Below, one piece after another: positions 52,256 through 62,833 of a DNA stretch of 64,000 bases. The notes beneath the pieces are model-generated. The model made no database searches and was not told the origin of the DNA. It worked only from the letters and a program-made list of their open reading frames with translations. Source of the DNA: a virus; IMG/VR virus record IMGVR_UViG_3300028840_005764, positions 32,001-96,000 of that record; one strand, 5' to 3'. The translations under genes and the position numbers were made by a program. Positions within the stretch are counted from its first letter, which is position 1. The number at the start of each line of letters is the position of its first letter.

Positions 52256-52395
52256 CTTGTATTATATTTGTGAGATTTTCTAATTCTTTGATTGTGAAAT
52301 CAATTATATCTACCATTTCTTGTTGTGTTTTGCCAAGGCACAGCTGCCTAGTGAAACATTCGATCATAATTTTTGCTTGTTTGGTCCCCATAGTT

Positions 52396-52470
52396 TGCCC
52401 CTGGAAGGATTCGAACCTTCACTGCGCGGTGCTTGAAACCGCTGTCTCTACCAAGTTGGACTACAGGGGC
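52396..52470 (-). tRNA. tRNA-Leu(CAA), short variable loop
   Basis: GCGGT-TTCAAGC-ACCGC; A73. Confidence 0.85.
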
Positions 52471-52584
52471 ATGATAACAAAAACAGCTTGACAATATCAG
52501 TGACTCAGTTATTATGGCGGCTTCGAAACACCGTAACCATCTTCTGCAGGCGCCCTGGAGAAACGTGGTTACGGTGTTTTGCTT

Positions 52585-52659
52585 TGCCCACCCTGAGATT
52601 CGAACTCAGACTTTCACGGACCTGAACCGTGTCCCTCTACCAAGTTGGGGTAGGTGGGC
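52585..52659 (-). tRNA. tRNA-Leu(CAG), short variable loop
   Basis: CACGG-TTCAGGT-CCGTG; A73. Confidence 0.85.
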
Positions 52660-52981: not shown

Positions 52982-52990
52982 ATAAATCAA

Positions 52991-53063
52991 TACTCGTGCA
53001 GGGATTCGAACCCCGAACATCCTGGTCCTAAGCCAGGCGCCTCTGCCGTTGGGCTACACGAGC
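52991..53063 (-). tRNA. tRNA-Leu(TAG), short variable loop
   Basis: CCTGG-CTTAGGA-CCAGG. Confidence 0.85.
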
Positions 53064-53101
53064 AAATGAGGTAATGAAATGTCGAAAGGAGGTAAAAAAT
53101 C

Positions 53102-54798: not shown

Positions 54799-54873
54799 TG
54801 TCCGTCCTGGGATTCGAACCCAGACTGGCAGCGCCCTCAACGCTGTTCCTCTACCTTGTTGGGATAGACGGAC
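54799..54873 (-). tRNA. tRNA-Leu(GAG), short variable loop
   Basis: CAGCG-TTGAGGG-CGCTG. Confidence 0.85.
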
Positions 54874-55661: not shown

Positions 55662-56225
55662 TTATTGAGTTTTTGGTCTTGGATATCTTTTTATTGGCCT
55701 GGGGTATCTTTTTATTTTTGCATTAAGTTCTTTTTTCTTACCGCCATTCCATAATTTGTTTTGACAAATATATCCTATAGTAGACAAATGCACTCCATAT
55801 ATTGATGCAATGTATTTTAATGTATTACCATGTGTACGTAGTGTCTTAATCTCTTCAACGTCTTGTTCAGATAATTTAGCACTTGGATTTTTAGAACCCA
55901 CTAATGAACGTTGATCAAGTATCATGTCATTCATATTATCTTGATGTGTGCCGATGATTAAATGTTTTGGGTTACAGCACAATGTATTATTGCATGTGTG
56001 TCGCACACACATACCACTTGGGATTGGTCCATTGACATCTTCATACACAAGTCTGTGGGCCCTATACCATTTGCGATGTTTTTTTGAATAGTATACTTTG
56101 AACTCACCATAGTAGTTGTTAGTGCGACCCGATCTGGACTTCGCACCAGTCCATAACCAACATTCGTTAGGACCGCGCTGTTCTATCTTCTCCCATATGC
56201 GTTTGTGTATCTCTTTGTCGATCAT
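55662..56225 (-). CDS. HNH endonuclease with C-terminal HTH
   Basis: CWLWTG, AHRL, HTCNN..CCNPKHL..GT..DN. Confidence 0.9.
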   Translation of the reverse strand: MIDKEIHKRIWEKIEQRGPNECWLWTGAKSRSGRTNNYYGEFKVYYSKKHRKWYRAHRLVYEDVNGPIPSGMCVRHTCNNTLCCNPKHLIIGTHQDNMNDMILDQRSLVGSKNPSAKLSEQDVEEIKTLRTHGNTLKYIASIYGVHLSTIGYICQNKLWNGGKKKELNAKIKRYPRPIKRYPRPKTQ

Positions 56226-56322
56226 TGTTGACTCTTTCTACTTGTTGGTATCAATCTAATATACCACTAAAGTAAAAAGAATTCTTATACTTATGGGAGT
56301 TGAACTTCCGAGTCGAACCCGT

Positions 56323-56396
56323 TGCCACGGGAGGGATTCGAACCCTCACTTATGCGATTTTAAGTCGCATGCCTCTACCAGTTGGGCTACTGTGGC
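56323..56396 (-). tRNA. tRNA-Leu(TAA), short variable loop
   Basis: TGCGA-CTTAAAA-TCGCA. Confidence 0.87.
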
Positions 56397-56401
56397 GTGA
56401 A

Positions 56402-56534
56402 TCGGGAGAGGTGGAATCGAACCACCGACCTGGGAGCTCCATATGCTGAAGTGGCGTCTTAGTTCCATGTGTGAGGCACGAGCGTTAGTTTAGACGTCAC
56501 TTACATCCCCGCTCTACCACTGAGCTATCTCCCG
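56402..56534 (-). ncRNA. tRNA-like RNA (Pro-like body) with GAACU-N10-UUCAG module inserted in the anticodon arm
   Basis: Canonical acceptor, D and T arms; ~70 nt at the anticodon loop containing stem AAGTGACGTCT/AGACGCCACTT. Confidence 0.8.
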
Positions 56535-56539
56535 AAAGG

Positions 56540-56680
56540 TGGACGGGCTAGGATTCGAACCTAGAAAAACTATGCTGAAACAACTTCTGAGTTCTCAATC
56601 GTATTGAGTGATGAAAGAAATTGTTGTTGCTTGCGTTGCTAGCTCTATAGGCTAGTGCCTTACCATTTGGCTACCCGTCC
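56540..56680 (-). ncRNA. tRNA-like RNA (ATA anticodon) with GAACU-N10-UUCAG module in the variable arm
   Basis: GGACGGG/CCCGTCC, D arm, CTAGC-CTATAGA-GCTAG, ~75-nt variable insertion, T arm. Confidence 0.8.
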
Positions 56681-56681
56681 A

Positions 56682-56758
56682 TGGTGGGGGCAATAGGACT
56701 CGAACCTATAGCCATCTGCTTGTAAGGCAGACACTCTGCGCAATTGAGTTATGCCCCC
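56682..56758 (-). tRNA. tRNA-Val(TAC)
   Basis: Cloverleaf, encoded CCA. Confidence 0.9.
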
Positions 56759-56766
56759 ATGGGTTG

Positions 56767-56839
56767 TGGACCAGGGCGGAATTGAACCGCCGACTCGAGG
56801 CTCTTCAGGCCCCAGCTCTACCTACTGAGCTACCGGTCC
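56767..56839 (-). tRNA. tRNA-Phe(GAA)
   Basis: GGGGC-CTGAAGA-GCCTC. Confidence 0.88.
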
Positions 56840-56896
56840 ACAAGATTCGTATTCAGTTTTCAAAGACTAAACATCAACGGATTGCCGAAGATGTTT

Positions 56897-56973
56897 TGGC
56901 GGGCCCAACGGGATTCGAACCCGTGTTACCGGCGTGACAGGCCAGCGTGCTAACCTGGCTACACTATGAGCCC
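56897..56973 (-). tRNA. tRNA-Asp(GTC)
   Basis: Cloverleaf, encoded CCA. Confidence 0.92.
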
Positions 56974-56977
56974 ATAC

Positions 56978-57163
56978 CTACAGAATTCTGAGTTCCTTCC
57001 TACGAACCCATTGTTCTGTTCCATCCTTCCATCGAACCTTTACTGACTGCATCTTAGTAGTGCCTTTTCCATCTAGTACTCGACCGGTCTTACCGTTCTT
57101 ACGGTGCTCTACAATAGTCGAGCCGTGAGTCAGCCAGTGATATCTTCTTTTCCCATCACTCAT
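56978..57163 (-). CDS. Small SH3-like/beta hypothetical protein
   Basis: V.H...G.TGRV..VKVRWKDG..W pattern. Confidence 0.5.
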   Translation of the reverse strand: MSDGKRRYHWLTHGSTIVEHRKNGKTGRVLDGKGTTKMQSVKVRWKDGTEQWVRRKELRIL

Positions 57164-57416
57164 GGCGTATGTCTTCTGACATCTTCTCTTCGTCTTTTTT
57201 TCTCTTCGCTCGTACCATGTGTTCGGGGATCGCTATCATCGACACACTGATCTGTGGCCCTTTCTCTCCGAACTTCCAAATCTCGTTCTGGATGATGGTA
57301 TGTAGCCGTCCGATCTCTTTCGGCGTAAACCATTCACAGTCCTGAGTTTCGGCACAGAAATGCACACGATGGTATAACGGCTCGTCTCTTTTTATGTTTT
57401 TCCCAATACCCACCAC
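57156..57416 (-). CDS. Hypothetical protein
   Basis: AAGGAG RBS. Confidence 0.5.
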   Translation of the reverse strand: MVGIGKNIKRDEPLYHRVHFCAETQDCEWFTPKEIGRLHTIIQNEIWKFGEKGPQISVSMIAIPEHMVRAKRKKDEEKMSEDIRHE

Positions 57417-59841: not shown

Positions 59842-60825
59842 TTACGCACCTGCTGAGCACAGAGACACATAAGGGTAGCCTTGCCGTTCCTTATACAGAA
59901 TTTGCCCAGCCAGTTGTTGGTTGGCTACAGTCGCCACACTCATCTTGGGCAGTCTGCTGTCGGCTGCACCTTCTGACAGCAGCGGCTGTTGTGTCACGTG
60001 TTCGATCGTTTTTTCGCTCAGCAGTTTGACCTGCGCATTGGCGTTTTTCAGTGCGCGGTGAATACCAGCCAGCGATTTGACCTCCACGCTCATGGGCACA
60101 AAGAATTTTGACGCTTGCCTGTGCCGCTTTTGATACTGAATTGCGAGTGAGCCGTAGCAGACTCTTATCAGTGGTTCCCACACACGTTCCCAGAACGCCA
60201 TGTTTGGAGCGCGTTCGACACCAACCACGTTTTCTCCCAGCAAGATGATGGCACCAATTTGTTTTGGCACCAACTCAAACTCAGCTACGAACTCATCCAG
60301 CTGCTTTTCAAAGTGCTTCAAGAAGTAAGTGAGGTGGCCACCAGTATGTGGCACTCCACTTTCTTTGTTCAGACTTCTGATGTGCGGCCAGATCTTGTCA
60401 TAACCTTGTCTGTGTCTCATACTGAGAGCATGAGATCGTATTGATGCTGGCAATACCAACATGGTGATCGCTTTCTGGTCTCTGATGTAACCACCTTGGC
60501 TGTCCTCGATGCACATGGCTGTCTCGATGGACTTGCGGCCGTTTGCTTTGACCAAAAACGCGCTTGGCACAGCGTGGTCTTGTGCACGTTCTCTTGTCAC
60601 CCAACCAGCACCTGTCGGTACGATGCTTGGTCGTGTGCTGTCTGTATTGCGCACTTGAACCGTACCATAGTTCGATGTTTCCACATGGAAGTCTGGTGGT
60701 GCGAAGTCGTCATCTTGCGCGTCGCCCTCGTCGATGAGCGGGATGACAGACATGTGGCCCACGGTTTGGGTTCTGCCACGTCCCATTCCTCTGAGGATTT
60801 CTTCGACTGTGAGGTTGCGTGTCAT
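59842..60825 (-). CDS. ARPP-1/DUF6569-like protein
   Basis: MSVIPL..V.N..RP...AQDH...CIE..QGG and QIGAII....VGVE pattern recalled from that family; ATGA-coupled to vWA gene. Confidence 0.55.
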   Translation of the reverse strand: MTRNLTVEEILRGMGRGRTQTVGHMSVIPLIDEGDAQDDDFAPPDFHVETSNYGTVQVRNTDSTRPSIVPTGAGWVTRERAQDHAVPSAFLVKANGRKSIETAMCIEDSQGGYIRDQKAITMLVLPASIRSHALSMRHRQGYDKIWPHIRSLNKESGVPHTGGHLTYFLKHFEKQLDEFVAEFELVPKQIGAIILLGENVVGVERAPNMAFWERVWEPLIRVCYGSLAIQYQKRHRQASKFFVPMSVEVKSLAGIHRALKNANAQVKLLSEKTIEHVTQQPLLSEGAADSRLPKMSVATVANQQLAGQILYKERQGYPYVSLCSAGA

Positions 60826-62435
60826 GACAGTGCCTTTCTCGTCTCAACTGACCCCAGGGCCAGACGTAGTAGGGCGTTGATTCCATTCACTGGCTCTGCC
60901 TCGATCATCCCTCGGATGAAGGTGGCTGTGAGCTGCCCAGGTTGCTGCACTGGCATTGTTGGTACACCGTCGTTGGGCGCCAGCTCACGTGCACCTTTCG
61001 ACTCGGCAGCGAACACCGGGTTTAAATGATACACAGGCGTATCAATACCGATCTCCCGCACGTGGTGCATGACCTCAGCGAAGCGCCCGGCTGGTGCATT
61101 CTCGTATCCGTCGCTGATCACGAACACAGCCTCGGGTTCGTCGTTCAGCGCCTCCACCAAGCTGTCAGCAATGGCTGTGTCACCCATCGGACGGACGAGA
61201 CCATCGCCAGCTTCGATGTCTGTACCACTGACATGGTACTCCTGACTCTCATCACCGGTGTGCAACAGGGTGTCGCGCATGGCCAAGGCCACCGCCAGGG
61301 GTCGCAGTGGTTGGCTGCGGTGACCAGCCATCGATTGTGACGCGTCCACGATGACGGCCACCGATTTGTAGCGCGTTGGGAACATCGCTGCGGTCTCCTT
61401 CGCCTTCTCGTCCAAGGCGTTCGCAATCTCTTGCGTCAGCCCACACTCGAACGCGTAGAGGTATAGGCGCACAGCGTCGTACTTCGTCGGGTCCATGTCG
61501 ACTTCGACGTTTGCGCGCTTTGCTCTTTTCTGTACTGCCATCTTCTGGTGGCCGGTGAGCTTGCCGCCCTTGGCCACAAGTTTCAGCACATCCTCCTTCT
61601 TCGTGTCGGGGTGGTATGTGCTTCTCAGGCCCTCCAGGACCTCCAGAGGAAGTTTAGAGCCAGCCTTGATATCTTCCTTCGCTTTTTCAAACGAAACGAA
61701 GAGAGGCAGGCTCAGGCGTTCACGCACGTCCAGGATGAAGCCCACGCACTCGAGCACTTCCTTGTATCTGTTCAGCTGGCAGTGCTTCCGGATGTTCTGC
61801 TCGAGAATCGTTAGCTCCTTCTTCTTTCGGTAACGCCCACCCTTCTTCAGGATCGATCCGATGATTGATGTTAGCCGTAGGCCCCAGGCGTGGGTCAGTG
61901 CCGCCCGCATTTTTGTCCTGTACTTCACCGACCAGAGTTGCAGTCTCGGGCTCGAGAGCAGCGTGCGCAGGATCAGTTTTCTTGTCCTGGCGTTGTTCGC
62001 CTTCTTCAGACCCAGGGATGCATCACCCACCCGCAGTCCATCGATCAGCTTCAACATGCGCTGTGGTGGCAGAGCTTGGAACAGGTGGTACAGCACCATG
62101 CGTTCTTGTCCCGGCTCGAGGAACGCTTGTTCCACGCCGTTCCGGGGGAATGACAGCAGCTTCTTCATACCGATCTGCACGCTGCGGTCGGTCAACCCTG
62201 GCAGCGTCAACAGCACGGCGTATACGTCCCTCTCCAGGCCAAAGAGTTCGTCGTGCACACGCAGTTCGGCAGCCTGTTGTTCGGCGCGCGTGTTGTAGTG
62301 CGTCGCGCGCCCCATGGAGCTGACAGCTGTGTCCAGGAATGAGCAGACGGATTTGCTCATCTTCTTCACAGCAGTCTTGTTCCGTGGCATCCACAGCAGC
62401 TGTTCATTCGAGTGCGTTTGCACCAACGTATTCAT
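60822..62435 (-). CDS. Helical N-terminal + C-terminal vWA protein (Ro60/TROVE-like architecture)
   Basis: GAGGTGA RBS; basic all-helical N-terminal ~350 aa; MIDAS VIVDASQSM...T...VFVISDGYEN. Confidence 0.7.
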   Translation of the reverse strand: MNTLVQTHSNEQLLWMPRNKTAVKKMSKSVCSFLDTAVSSMGRATHYNTRAEQQAAELRVHDELFGLERDVYAVLLTLPGLTDRSVQIGMKKLLSFPRNGVEQAFLEPGQERMVLYHLFQALPPQRMLKLIDGLRVGDASLGLKKANNARTRKLILRTLLSSPRLQLWSVKYRTKMRAALTHAWGLRLTSIIGSILKKGGRYRKKKELTILEQNIRKHCQLNRYKEVLECVGFILDVRERLSLPLFVSFEKAKEDIKAGSKLPLEVLEGLRSTYHPDTKKEDVLKLVAKGGKLTGHQKMAVQKRAKRANVEVDMDPTKYDAVRLYLYAFECGLTQEIANALDEKAKETAAMFPTRYKSVAVIVDASQSMAGHRSQPLRPLAVALAMRDTLLHTGDESQEYHVSGTDIEAGDGLVRPMGDTAIADSLVEALNDEPEAVFVISDGYENAPAGRFAEVMHHVREIGIDTPVYHLNPVFAAESKGARELAPNDGVPTMPVQQPGQLTATFIRGMIEAEPVNGINALLRLALGSVETRKALS

Positions 62436-62493: not shown

Positions 62494-62563
62494 TAGCGGT
62501 AATTACGGAAGCTGGGTCTTTGACATAAACTATTTGTCTGAACCAGCATCACAGTTCCCGCTA
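62494..62563 (-). ncRNA. Minimal GAACU-N10-UUCAG motif RNA (no tRNA domain)
   Basis: TAGCGG/CCGCTA ends, GCTGG/CCAGC stem, GACA/TGTC apical hairpin. Confidence 0.65.
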
Positions 62564-62570
62564 AAAGAAA

Positions 62571-62694
62571 TGGTTGAGTCAATTAGAGCATCACGTTTTC
62601 TAAGTGACTGGACTTGAACCAGCTACCTACGGTTTTCAGGACCGTTGCTCTTTCCAACTGAGCTACACTAAAGTGACCCTCAAGTTCTCAACCA
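62571..62694 (-). ncRNA. Y-RNA-like: tRNA cloverleaf whose acceptor stem is extended by the GAACU-N10-UUUAG module
   Basis: TGGTTGAG/CTCAACCA ends; D arm, ACGGT-CCTGAAA-ACCGT, GCTGG-TTCAAGT-CCAGT. Confidence 0.8.
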
Positions 62695-62709
62695 AAACAA
62701 GGCGTTTAA

Positions 62710-62833
62710 AGCGAGGGAAGTAGGACATCACGATTGAGTGAAAGAGAAGGATTTGAACCTTCAACCTTCGGCTCTGCATGCCGATGCTCGACCACTCGAG
62801 CTGTCTTCCTAAAGTGACCTCCAAGTTCTCGCT
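62710..62833 (-). ncRNA. Y-RNA-like: tRNA cloverleaf (GCA loop) whose acceptor stem is extended by the GAACU-N10-UUUAG module
   Basis: AGCGAG/CTCGCT ends; D arm, TCGGC-ATGCAGA-GCCGA, GAAGG-TTCAAAT-CCTTC. Confidence 0.8.

What the first reader, a model, noticed from the sequence alone, without database searches (positions are those of the whole stretch)
56540..56680. tRNA with an AUA anticodon and a ~75-nt variable arm carrying the shared motif
The anticodon arm is perfect but reads ATA, and an A34 Tyr anticodon is essentially unused in bacteria. The variable region holds AACAATTTCT/AGAAGTTGTT and CTCAAT/ATTGAG stems with GAACU in the internal loop, followed by UUCAGCAUA, identical to the neighbouring RNA. 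Both acceptor and anticodon are free, so it could be a chargeable or cleavable bait tethered to a protein (inference).
Basis: partly seen in the sequence, partly recalled or inferred. Interest (0 to 1): 0.72.

Follow-up and report, generated by a model that had tools for sequence, protein, structure and literature searches.

The report
tRNA carrying a Ro60-binding arm
A large uncultured phage encodes a complete tRNA whose variable loop is replaced by a 74-base arm, and this arm is the same structured "handle" found on the small RNAs next to the phage's Ro60-like ring protein, so it is most likely a tRNA-shaped partner RNA (Y-RNA-like) of that protein rather than a decoding tRNA.

Summary
Minus strand 56680..56540 is a 141-nt tRNA (Rfam 55.2 bits; ARAGORN misses it). 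It has intact acceptor, D, anticodon (loop CUAUAGA, anticodon AUA) and T arms, and a 74-nt insert at the variable loop.

The insert folds as a 10-bp helix, an internal loop (UUCAUCA/AACUC) and a 6-bp helix capped by ACG. The word UUCAGCAUA follows, as in the neighbouring RNA.

The nearby 537-aa "vWA protein" is a divergent Ro60 (VIA-align Z 12.7-17.1 to ten Ro60 structures, no Pfam TROVE hit). In all 22 related phage loci an ARPP-1-like gene follows it. In most, 1-3 RNAs closed by this same handle precede it.

A covariance model built only from handles of other phages finds the tRNA's insert as the window's top hit (45.3 bits, E about 1e-8). The handle's pairs covary.

Eight other phage RNAs carry the handle inside a tRNA shape, at other positions. 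The variable-loop position is unique in my sample, and no ortholog was found.

Best reading: a Y-RNA-like RNA, an unpermuted relative of YrlA, with free acceptor and anticodon ends. Binding, charging and any bait role are untested.

Other agents of this scan noted similar designs on other DNA.

The parts
56540..56680 (-). t1: 141-nt five-armed tRNA (acceptor 56674-56680/56541-56547, discriminator A 56540, D arm 56657-56671, anticodon arm 56639-56655, T arm 56548-56564)
   Evidence: Rfam tRNA 55.2 bits, model 1-71; sequence read; identical in the independent assembly L155
56646..56648 (-). Anticodon AUA in the loop CUAUAGA (U33 present, G37)
   Evidence: cmscan alignment; direct reading
56565..56638 (-). 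74-nt insert occupying the variable-loop position
   Evidence: cmscan places the whole insertion between model positions 44 and 45
56575..56624 (-). Handle in hairpin form. Upper helix 56615-56624 with 56580-56589. Internal loop 56609-56614 (UCAUCA) opposite AACU 56590-56593. Lower helix 56603-56608 with 56594-56599. Triloop ACG 56600-56602. Then UUCAG 56575-56579, followed by CAUA 56571-56574.
   Evidence: Model R3, built from 7 handles of other phages, scores it 45.3 bits, E 1.1e-8, full length, top hit in the window and in the whole record; descriptor statistics
56402..56534 (-). t2: neighbouring tRNA-shaped RNA, 6 nt downstream. Acceptor, D and T arms are intact. The anticodon loop is replaced by the same handle (56446-56500), which is again followed by UUCAGCAUA.
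   Evidence: Sequence; descriptor hit; R3 16.5 bits, E 0.26, third hit in the window; not called by Rfam or ARAGORN
62710..62833 (-). RNA A: handle in open form (its 5' and 3' ends make the two helices) closing a tRNA-like cargo (anticodon loop AUGCAGA)
62572..62693 (-). RNA B: open-form handle closing a second tRNA-like cargo (loop CCUGAAA)
62495..62562 (-). RNA C: open-form handle closing only a small hairpin
   Evidence: ends approximate
60822..62435 (-). 537-aa Ro60-like protein: helical ring plus vWA domain with invariant D364-x-S366-x-S368, T420 and D442 (MIDAS-type residues)
   Evidence: AF2 model pLDDT 82; Foldseek top 10 all Ro60; VIA-align Z 12.7-17.1 over about 400-415 residues; invariant columns; no Pfam TROVE match
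59842..60825 (-). 327-aa ARPP-1-like protein, overlapping the Ro60-like gene's stop codon by 4 nt
   Evidence: Pfam PF20208, E 6.6e-27; a homolog directly downstream of the Ro60-like gene in 22 of 22 IMG/VR loci

Best explanation
t1 is a tRNA-shaped Y-RNA-like RNA. It is transcribed inside the phage's tRNA array (Asp, Phe, Val, t1, t2, Leu, with spacers of 1-6 nt between Val, t1, t2 and Leu), so its ends are presumably made by the normal tRNA-processing enzymes. It can fold into a normal L shape with a free acceptor end and a free anticodon loop. In place of a variable loop it carries a bulged two-helix arm. That arm is the hairpin (circularly permuted) version of the handle that closes the small RNAs encoded beside the phage's Ro60-like gene. 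The arm is most likely the docking site of that Ro60-like ring, which acts together with its conserved ARPP-1-like partner. The tRNA body then plays the role that the effector-binding module plays in known Y RNAs: it presents a tRNA surface to some tRNA-recognising protein, or takes the protein complex to where tRNAs go. Shown here: the tRNA fold, the handle's structure and its homology to other handles, the Ro60 fold of the protein, and the conserved RNA-protein gene linkage. Inferred: that the protein binds the handle, how the RNA is processed, and what the tethered tRNA does.
For: (1) Full tRNA match with one insertion, and all nucleotides for tertiary contacts are present. (2) The 537-aa neighbour has the Ro60 fold: Foldseek top 10 are all Ro60, E 2.4e-6 to 1.1e-4. 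VIA-align gives Z 17.1 to the Thermus phage phiLo Ro60 and 15.4 to Xenopus Ro60 with RNA, about 405-415 aligned residues. (3) RNAs with the layout lower stem, G(A/G)ACU, 10-nt strand, U(U/A/C)(C/U)AG, cargo, then the complementary strands lie just upstream of the Ro60-like gene in most related loci. RNAalifold on 13 of them recovers the upper helix, and 6 of its 7 pairs show compensatory changes. (4) Model R3, built from 7 hairpin handles of other phages only, scores t1's insert 45.3 bits, E about 1e-8. On 14 aligned handles 87.5% of cells pair, against 64.4% in shuffles (0 of 500 reach it) and 38-53% with slid partners. 14 of 15 pairs change on both sides. (5) The same handle is grafted into tRNA shapes elsewhere. 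It sits in the D loop or D-arm region in L018, L159, L015, L022 and L180, between the acceptor and D arms in L183 and L186, and between the D and anticodon arms in L026, which Rfam scores as tRNA at 39.9 bits. (6) The family also has YrlA-type members: an open handle around a permuted tRNA with a closed acceptor stem (L005, L006, L008, L009). The L008 member matches Rfam YrlA over the full model at 32.7 bits, E 1e-5. (7) Precedent in print: Ro60 binds a bulged helix of Y RNAs, and phage Ro60 binds the Y-like RNAs encoded upstream of its gene (PMC4201824, PMC12135203).
Against: No binding, expression or processing data exist. t1 lies 4.1 kb from the Ro60-like gene, not beside it. The handle does not carry the published Ro60-contact word GNCGAA/CGAA; it has YGAGAACU and UUCAGCA instead. 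t1 itself does not match Rfam YrlA. No ortholog of t1 was found, and the variable-loop graft is unique among about ten grafts examined, so selection on this particular RNA is not shown. The handle alignments were fitted to the model, which favours pairing counts. R3's training sequences were chosen and aligned by a model that had seen t1.
Confidence: 0.65

Rival explanations
1. The handle is real, but its binding partner is not the Ro60-like ring. It docks the ARPP-1-like protein, a host factor, or another RNA, and the gene linkage with Ro60 reflects a shared pathway only.
For: The ARPP-like gene is as tightly linked as the Ro60-like gene (22 of 22 loci). The handle lacks the GNCGAA/CGAA word that PMC4201824 and PMC12135203 associate with Ro60 contact.
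Against: Every studied Ro60 binds RNAs encoded next to its gene through a bulged terminal helix (PMC4201824, PMC12135203). ARPP has no known RNA-binding role (PMC9503650).
Confidence: 0.12
2. t1 is a working decoding tRNA that reads UAU (Tyr) and happens to have an outsized class-II-type variable arm.
For: The cloverleaf is complete, with A73, G1-C72, U35 and a 3-bp D stem with a 13:22 mismatch, as in class II tRNAs. It sits in the tRNA array with normal spacing.
Against: The phage already has a normal tRNA-Tyr(GUA) of 88 nt with A37. t1 has A34 and G37, both atypical for a Tyr decoder by general knowledge of tRNA. It is no closer to that tRNA-Tyr than to other tRNAs. The 74-nt arm is about three times the longest natural variable arms and is homologous to the termini of non-tRNA RNAs such as RNA C. 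Sibling grafts destroy the D loop or the anticodon loop.
Confidence: 0.08
3. The insert is an intron-like or processing element that is cut out, leaving an ordinary tRNA. This would resemble archaeal bulge-helix-bulge introns, which occur at many tRNA positions and in permuted tRNAs.
For: The handle occurs at many positions of tRNA bodies and around permuted tRNAs, which is reminiscent of archaeal intron and permuted-tRNA biology (discussed for YrlA in 10.1101/312249).
Against: The internal loop (7 nt opposite 5 nt) is not a 3-4-3 bulge-helix-bulge. 74 nt is far too short for a group I intron. No RtcB or RNA ligase is found in the 104-kb record, which is 73% complete. RNA C has a handle but nothing to splice. 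In t2, removing the handle leaves no recognisable anticodon loop.
Confidence: 0.07
4. t1 is a tRNA gene disabled by insertion of a selfish repeat: a decaying pseudogene with no function.
For: No ortholog was found in IMG/VR. A homing HNH endonuclease gene lies nearby.
Against: Every stem of the tRNA and of the insert is intact. The handle has only five copies in the record, all on RNA genes. Its helices covary across phages, which is not the pattern of a recently spread repeat.
Confidence: 0.05

Closest known systems
YrlA (Rfam RF02553), the tRNA-like Y RNA bound by bacterial and phage Ro60/Rsr (Chen et al. 2014, PMC4201824; Wang et al. 2018, 10.1101/312249)
   Same: Both join a tRNA-like L-shaped body with conserved D and T elements to a bulged helix, and both are encoded with a Ro60-fold protein. 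Members of the same phage handle family have the exact YrlA layout, and one matches RF02553 over the full model at 32.7 bits.
   Different: YrlA is circularly permuted: its acceptor stem is a closed loop, it has no free CCA end, and the Ro60 module extends from the anticodon stem. t1 has normal tRNA strand order, a free acceptor end and an intact anticodon arm. Its handle is a capped hairpin at the variable loop. The handle words (YGAGAACU, UUCAGCA) differ from GNCGAA. t1 does not reach any RF02553 score of note (best partial hit E 0.11).
Phage Ro60 with upstream Y-like RNAs Yrl1/Yrl2 (Thermus phage phiLo; PMC12135203, PDB 9KOP and 9L5Y)
   Same: A phage-encoded Ro60-fold ring with its partner RNAs encoded directly upstream. 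It is the closest structural match of the 537-aa protein (Z 17.1 and 16.6).
   Different: About 13-15% sequence identity and no TROVE Pfam match here. The phiLo RNAs are stem-bulge-stem RNAs with a CGAA word, not tRNAs. No ARPP-like partner is reported for phiLo.
Class II tRNAs (bacterial Leu, Ser, Tyr) with long variable arms
   Same: An extra helix emerges from the variable region. The 3-bp D stem and A73 resemble the bacterial tRNA-Tyr design.
   Different: Natural variable arms are roughly 10-24 nt simple hairpins. This one is 74 nt, has a conserved internal loop, and is homologous to the termini of non-tRNA RNAs.
Archaeal and algal tRNA genes with non-canonical introns or permuted order (reviewed in PMC4033280)
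   Same: A structured element interrupts tRNA bodies at many different positions, and permuted tRNA forms occur alongside.
   Different: There is no bulge-helix-bulge geometry, no splicing endonuclease or ligase is found, and the element also occurs without any tRNA cargo.

Membership tests
tRNA (Rfam RF00005) | Cloverleaf scoring above the family's gathering score | tested here: met
   55.2 bits against 29, model positions 1-71
tRNA (Rfam RF00005) | Nucleotides for tertiary contacts (U8, A14, G18G19, 15:48 pair, T54-psi55-C56, A58) | tested here: met
   All present in the sequence, with A15:U48
tRNA (Rfam RF00005) | Variable region of 4-5 nt (class I) or about 10-24 nt (class II) | tested here: not met
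   74 nt; ARAGORN rejects it
tRNA (Rfam RF00005) | Aminoacylation and use in decoding | not testable with these tools
   A34 and G37 are atypical for Tyr; a normal tRNA-Tyr(GUA) is present in the array
YrlA / Y RNA-like (RF02553) | Match to the family's covariance model | tested here: not met
   Only a partial hit across the t1/t2 junction, 20.6 bits against 69, E 0.11. A permuted relative in L008 gets 32.7 bits, E 1e-5.
YrlA / Y RNA-like (RF02553) | Permuted order with a closed acceptor stem and the Ro60 module on the anticodon stem | tested here: not met
   t1 has normal order, open acceptor ends, and the handle at the variable loop
YrlA / Y RNA-like (RF02553) | Ro60-contact word GNCGAA(N)G on the 5' strand | tested here: not met
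   The handle has AUUGAGAACU and UUCAGCA instead
Y RNAs in the broad sense (Ro60-bound RNA: bulged helix plus effector module) | Conserved bulged helix, supported by covariation | tested here: met
Y RNAs in the broad sense (Ro60-bound RNA: bulged helix plus effector module) | Encoded with a Ro60-family protein | tested here: met
   Ro60 fold. Handle RNAs lie directly upstream of the gene here and in most related loci. t1 itself is 4.1 kb away in the same genome.
Y RNAs in the broad sense (Ro60-bound RNA: bulged helix plus effector module) | Physical binding by Ro60 | not testable with these tools
   The complex predictor takes no RNA and was closed
Ro60 / TROVE proteins (for the 537-aa neighbour) | Helical-repeat ring followed by a vWA domain with a MIDAS site | tested here: met
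   Z 12.7-17.1 to ten Ro60 entries over nearly the full length; invariant DxSxS, T and D residues
Ro60 / TROVE proteins (for the 537-aa neighbour) | Sequence match to Pfam TROVE (PF05731) | tested here: not met
   No hit at E up to 10 or in the six-frame search of the record; no PDB sequence hit
tRNA introns (group I, or archaeal bulge-helix-bulge) | Group I core (over 200 nt), or two 3-nt bulges separated by a 4-bp helix | tested here: not met
   74 nt; internal loop of 7 nt opposite 5 nt between 10-bp and 6-bp helices; no Rfam intron hit

The most novel reading that the evidence does not exclude
The phage makes a panel of handle-tagged tRNAs that each expose a different tRNA face: RNAs A and B expose the anticodon and elbow, t2 the acceptor and elbow, and t1 all three. 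t1 would be matured, given CCA and perhaps charged. It would then act as a tethered bait that captures a host tRNA-targeting defence enzyme or another tRNA-binding factor on the Ro60-like/ARPP complex. Alternatively it would carry that complex to the translation machinery. Either way this would be a new anti-defence or translation-control strategy built on a Y-RNA chassis.
Probability: 0.15. Interest if true: 0.85.

Novelty: new variant of a known kind. Interest (0 to 1): 0.68.

Why it matters
Y RNAs are thought to tether Ro60 to other proteins, and the partner of the tRNA-like YrlA domain is still unknown. Here the same logic appears in a form that is easier to test: a complete, normally ordered tRNA with free acceptor and anticodon ends and a detachable 50-nt arm.

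It also shows that the Ro60 handle is a portable module. It can be grafted onto the termini, the D loop, the 8/9 and 26 junctions, the anticodon loop or the variable loop of tRNA scaffolds. This bears on how YrlA arose from tRNA.

The partner is a large Ro60 branch that sequence profiles do not recognise. It has more than 480 homologs in metagenomes, nearly all without a source-given name beyond 'hypothetical protein', and it is always paired with an ARPP-1-like protein. None of the papers I searched describes this pairing.

If the tRNA body is a bait or adaptor, this is a new way for large phages to interfere with tRNA-directed host processes.

Tried and rejected
1. Close relatives. blastn of the array against INPHARED phages gave only generic tRNA hits. 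An exact search for the AUA anticodon arm in IMG/VR gave none. The pattern handle + UUCAG(CA) + T arm gave 118 and then 25 IMG/VR stretches. After stem filtering nearly all were chance matches; only the known G006 RNA was real.

2. Origin from tRNA-Tyr. t1 is not a recent copy of the phage's tRNA-Tyr or of any other array tRNA; alignment scores are unremarkable.

3. A34-to-inosine editing. No cytidine/TadA-type deaminase is found in the 104-kb record. The idea of an IUA anticodon reading UAA was dropped for lack of support.

4. RNA repair context. No RtcB or Rnl-type ligase is found in the record.

5. Promoter and terminator scan of 56150-57250: nothing above chance.

6. My first ungapped stem-scoring scripts could not separate cognate from shuffled strands, or mis-set the hairpin search range. 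They were replaced by a stricter descriptor and by covariance models.

7. MAFFT could not align hairpin handles structurally, so models were bootstrapped from two sequences instead.

8. Some model hits are the 3' strand of one open-form RNA next to the 5' strand of the following one (for example 62668-62731, L015:6522, L184/L185). These are not single-molecule hairpins.

The complex predictor was closed, so the Ro60-like/ARPP contact was not examined.

10. A tblastn search of INPHARED with the Ro60-like protein found only one record, an uncultured 462-kb phage (LR756500.1, 42% identity). No cultured model phage is at hand.

Full report
**What is there**

Window 56540-56680, minus strand, is matched end to end by the Rfam tRNA model at 55.2 bits (gathering score 29). 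There is one long insertion between the anticodon arm and the T arm. ARAGORN finds 23 tRNAs in the window but not this one.

Reading the RNA gives the following:
- Acceptor GGACGGG/CCCGUCC with discriminator A and no encoded CCA.
- D stem GCC/GGC plus an A.A, and a D loop with GG.
- Anticodon stem CUAGC/GCUAG with loop CUAUAGA, so the anticodon is AUA (56646-56648), with U33 and G37.
- T stem CUAGG/CCUAG with loop UUCGAAU.

The nucleotides that build the tRNA elbow are all present, including an A15:U48 pair. The insert is 74 nt. It contains a 10-pair helix, an internal loop (UUCAUCA opposite AACUC) and a 6-pair helix capped by ACG.

The RNA 6 nt downstream (t2, 56402-56534) has tRNA acceptor, D and T arms. 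Its anticodon loop is replaced by the same kind of hairpin, again followed by UUCAGCAUA. Both sit in a tRNA array. The spacers between Val, t1, t2 and Leu are 1-6 nt, and no ORF of 70 aa or more overlaps. A separately assembled 143.5-kb contig is identical over the whole stretch.

**More than chance**

GAACU-N10-UUYAG occurs five times in the window against 0.30 expected. It occurs nowhere else in the 104-kb virus record.

A descriptor asking for the relaxed motif, a perfect capped lower stem and at least 8 of 10 upper pairs finds t1 and t2. It finds a mean of 0.01 sites in 300 simulated windows.

**The protein**

The other three motif copies lie on three small RNAs directly upstream of a 537-aa ORF (60822-62435). 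That ORF has no Pfam family, only a faint vWA hit.

It has more than 480 metagenomic homologs. An AlphaFold model from 29 of them has pLDDT 82. Foldseek's ten best PDB matches are all Ro60.

VIA-align gives Z 12.7-17.1 over about 400-415 residues to Ro60 of Thermus phage phiLo, Xenopus, human and Deinococcus. These scores stand above all the plain vWA domains. The MIDAS-type residues are invariant.

So the "vWA protein" is a divergent Ro60 that sequence profiles miss. A 327-aa ARPP-1-like gene overlaps its stop codon. A homolog follows the Ro60-like gene in all 22 related IMG/VR loci. The paper that defined ARPP does not link it to Ro60 (PMC9503650).

**The handle family**

In most related loci the Ro60-like gene is preceded by one to three RNAs with a common layout:
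- a lower stem;
- G(A/G)ACU;
- a 10-nt strand;
- U(U/A/C)(C/U)AG, often followed by CA;
- a cargo;
- the complementary strand, a 5-7-nt pyrimidine-rich bulge, and the lower-stem complement.

The cargo may be a tRNA-like cloverleaf joined at its acceptor end (ARAGORN assigns arbitrary anticodons). It may be a bare hairpin. Or it may be a circularly permuted tRNA with a closed acceptor stem (L005, L006, L008, L009).

That last layout is the YrlA layout. The L008 RNA matches Rfam YrlA over the whole model at 32.7 bits, E 1e-5, which is below the gathering score. RNAalifold on 13 tRNA-cargo members recovers the D, anticodon and T arms and seven pairs of the upper handle helix. Six of those seven pairs show compensatory changes.

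**t1's insert is that handle, turned inside out**

In t1 the strand order is upper 3' strand, bulge, lower 3' strand, loop, lower 5' strand, AACU, upper 5' strand, UUCAG. This is the open handle closed at its outer end and opened at its inner end.

I bootstrapped covariance models from hairpin copies. The third model, R3, contains only seven handles from other phages. With filters off it scores t1's insert 45.3 bits, E about 1e-8, over its full length. That is the best hit in the window and in the whole record. t2 is third at E 0.26.

There is a caveat. R3's training rows were picked and aligned by a model that had seen t1, and E-values from the shortened calibration are rough.

On 14 aligned handles 87.5% of cells pair, against 64.4% in shuffles (0 of 500 reach it) and 38-53% when partners are slid. 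14 of 15 pairs change on both sides. This alignment is fitted to the model.

**The design recurs, this exact RNA does not**

Hairpin handles inside tRNA shapes were found in these places:

| Locus | Position of the handle | Notes |
|---|---|---|
| L018, L159, L015, L180 | D loop | |
| L022 | D-arm region | |
| L183, L186 | between the acceptor and D arms | |
| L026 | between the D and anticodon arms | Ser-type body with a long variable arm and encoded CCA; Rfam tRNA 39.9 bits |

I found no second variable-loop graft and no ortholog of t1. The closest Ro60-like relatives are only 62-66% identical. Anticodons of the grafted tRNAs vary (AUA, GUA twice, UGA twice, UAG, UGG, AAU).

**Mechanism**

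Ro60 proteins bind a bulged helix of Y RNAs, and the rest of the Y RNA recruits another protein. Bacterial YrlA carries a tRNA mimic whose partner is unknown (PMC4201824; 10.1101/312249). A phage Ro60 binds the two Y-like RNAs encoded upstream of its gene (PMC12135203).

By that precedent and the evidence above, t1 is best read as a Y-RNA-like RNA whose fifth arm docks the Ro60-like ring. Its tRNA body, with acceptor, elbow and anticodon all exposed, would be the effector-recruiting part.

G37, A34, the presence of a normal tRNA-Tyr(GUA) and the size of the arm argue against ordinary decoding. Whether t1 is charged, cleaved, or used as a decoy is not addressed by any result here.

**Rivals**

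- A different binding partner for the handle: 0.12.
- A decoding tRNA: 0.08.
- An excised intron-like element: 0.07. There is no bulge-helix-bulge geometry, no ligase was found, and RNA C has no cargo to splice.
- A dead gene: 0.05. All stems are intact and the helices covary.

**Novelty and prior notes**

Ro60 with tRNA-like Y RNAs, including in phages, is known. The following were not described in any paper I could search:
- a normally ordered, five-armed tRNA with the handle at the variable loop;
- this handle sequence;
- this Ro60 branch and its fixed ARPP-like partner.

Other agents of this scan have noted similar handle-tagged tRNAs on other DNA. First readers noted the system in this genome. 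I treated those notes as leads only.

Noticed in passing
window 52395-52471, 52585-52659, 52990-53064, 54799-54873, 56323-56396 (all minus strand): All five tRNA-Leu genes of the array are 74-77 nt with a 5-nt variable loop (class I shape). Bacterial tRNA-Leu normally has a long variable arm. The Ser and Tyr tRNAs of the same array keep theirs. Related phages mostly have 83-91-nt Leu tRNAs; L012 also has short ones.
   Followed up: no
L008:4324-4470, L009:4195-4340, L006:1657-1835: YrlA-like RNAs (open handle around a permuted tRNA with a closed acceptor stem) lie immediately upstream of phage tmRNA genes, about 3.5-6 kb from the Ro60-like gene.
   Followed up: partly
L183 (G013:327211-327256 and flanks), L159:14390-14520, window 56540-56680: Three of the handle-grafted tRNAs have Tyr-type anticodon loops: GUA with a long variable arm in L183, GUA with C33 in L159, and AUA in t1. 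This could be chance among about ten examples, or a hint that tRNA-Tyr mimicry matters.
   Followed up: no
L157:17757-18239, and the P0004 contig: A roughly 157-160-aa cytidine/TadA-type deaminase gene lies within 2-6 kb of the Ro60-like/ARPP pair in two relatives. Several related phage arrays hold A34 anticodons (Ile AAU, Leu AAG, Gly ACC, Ser ACU, Asp AUC). No such deaminase is in this phage's 104-kb record.
   Followed up: partly
window 55662-56225 (-): An HNH homing-endonuclease ORF with an HTH domain sits directly after the tRNA cluster that holds t1 and t2.
   Followed up: no
window 62668-62731 (-), and tandem handle RNAs in L002, L004, L015, L022: RNAs A and B have nearly identical upper-helix strands. 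The 3' strand of A and the 5' strand of B could therefore pair with each other in a common precursor. The covariance models pick up such junctions.
   Followed up: partly
INPHARED record LR756500.1, 103910-105364: The only deposited phage genome with this Ro60-like protein is an uncultured 462-kb phage (42% identity). One homolog lies on a 5.9-Mb Minicystis MAG contig (P0110), so the family may also occur in bacteria or prophages.
   Followed up: no
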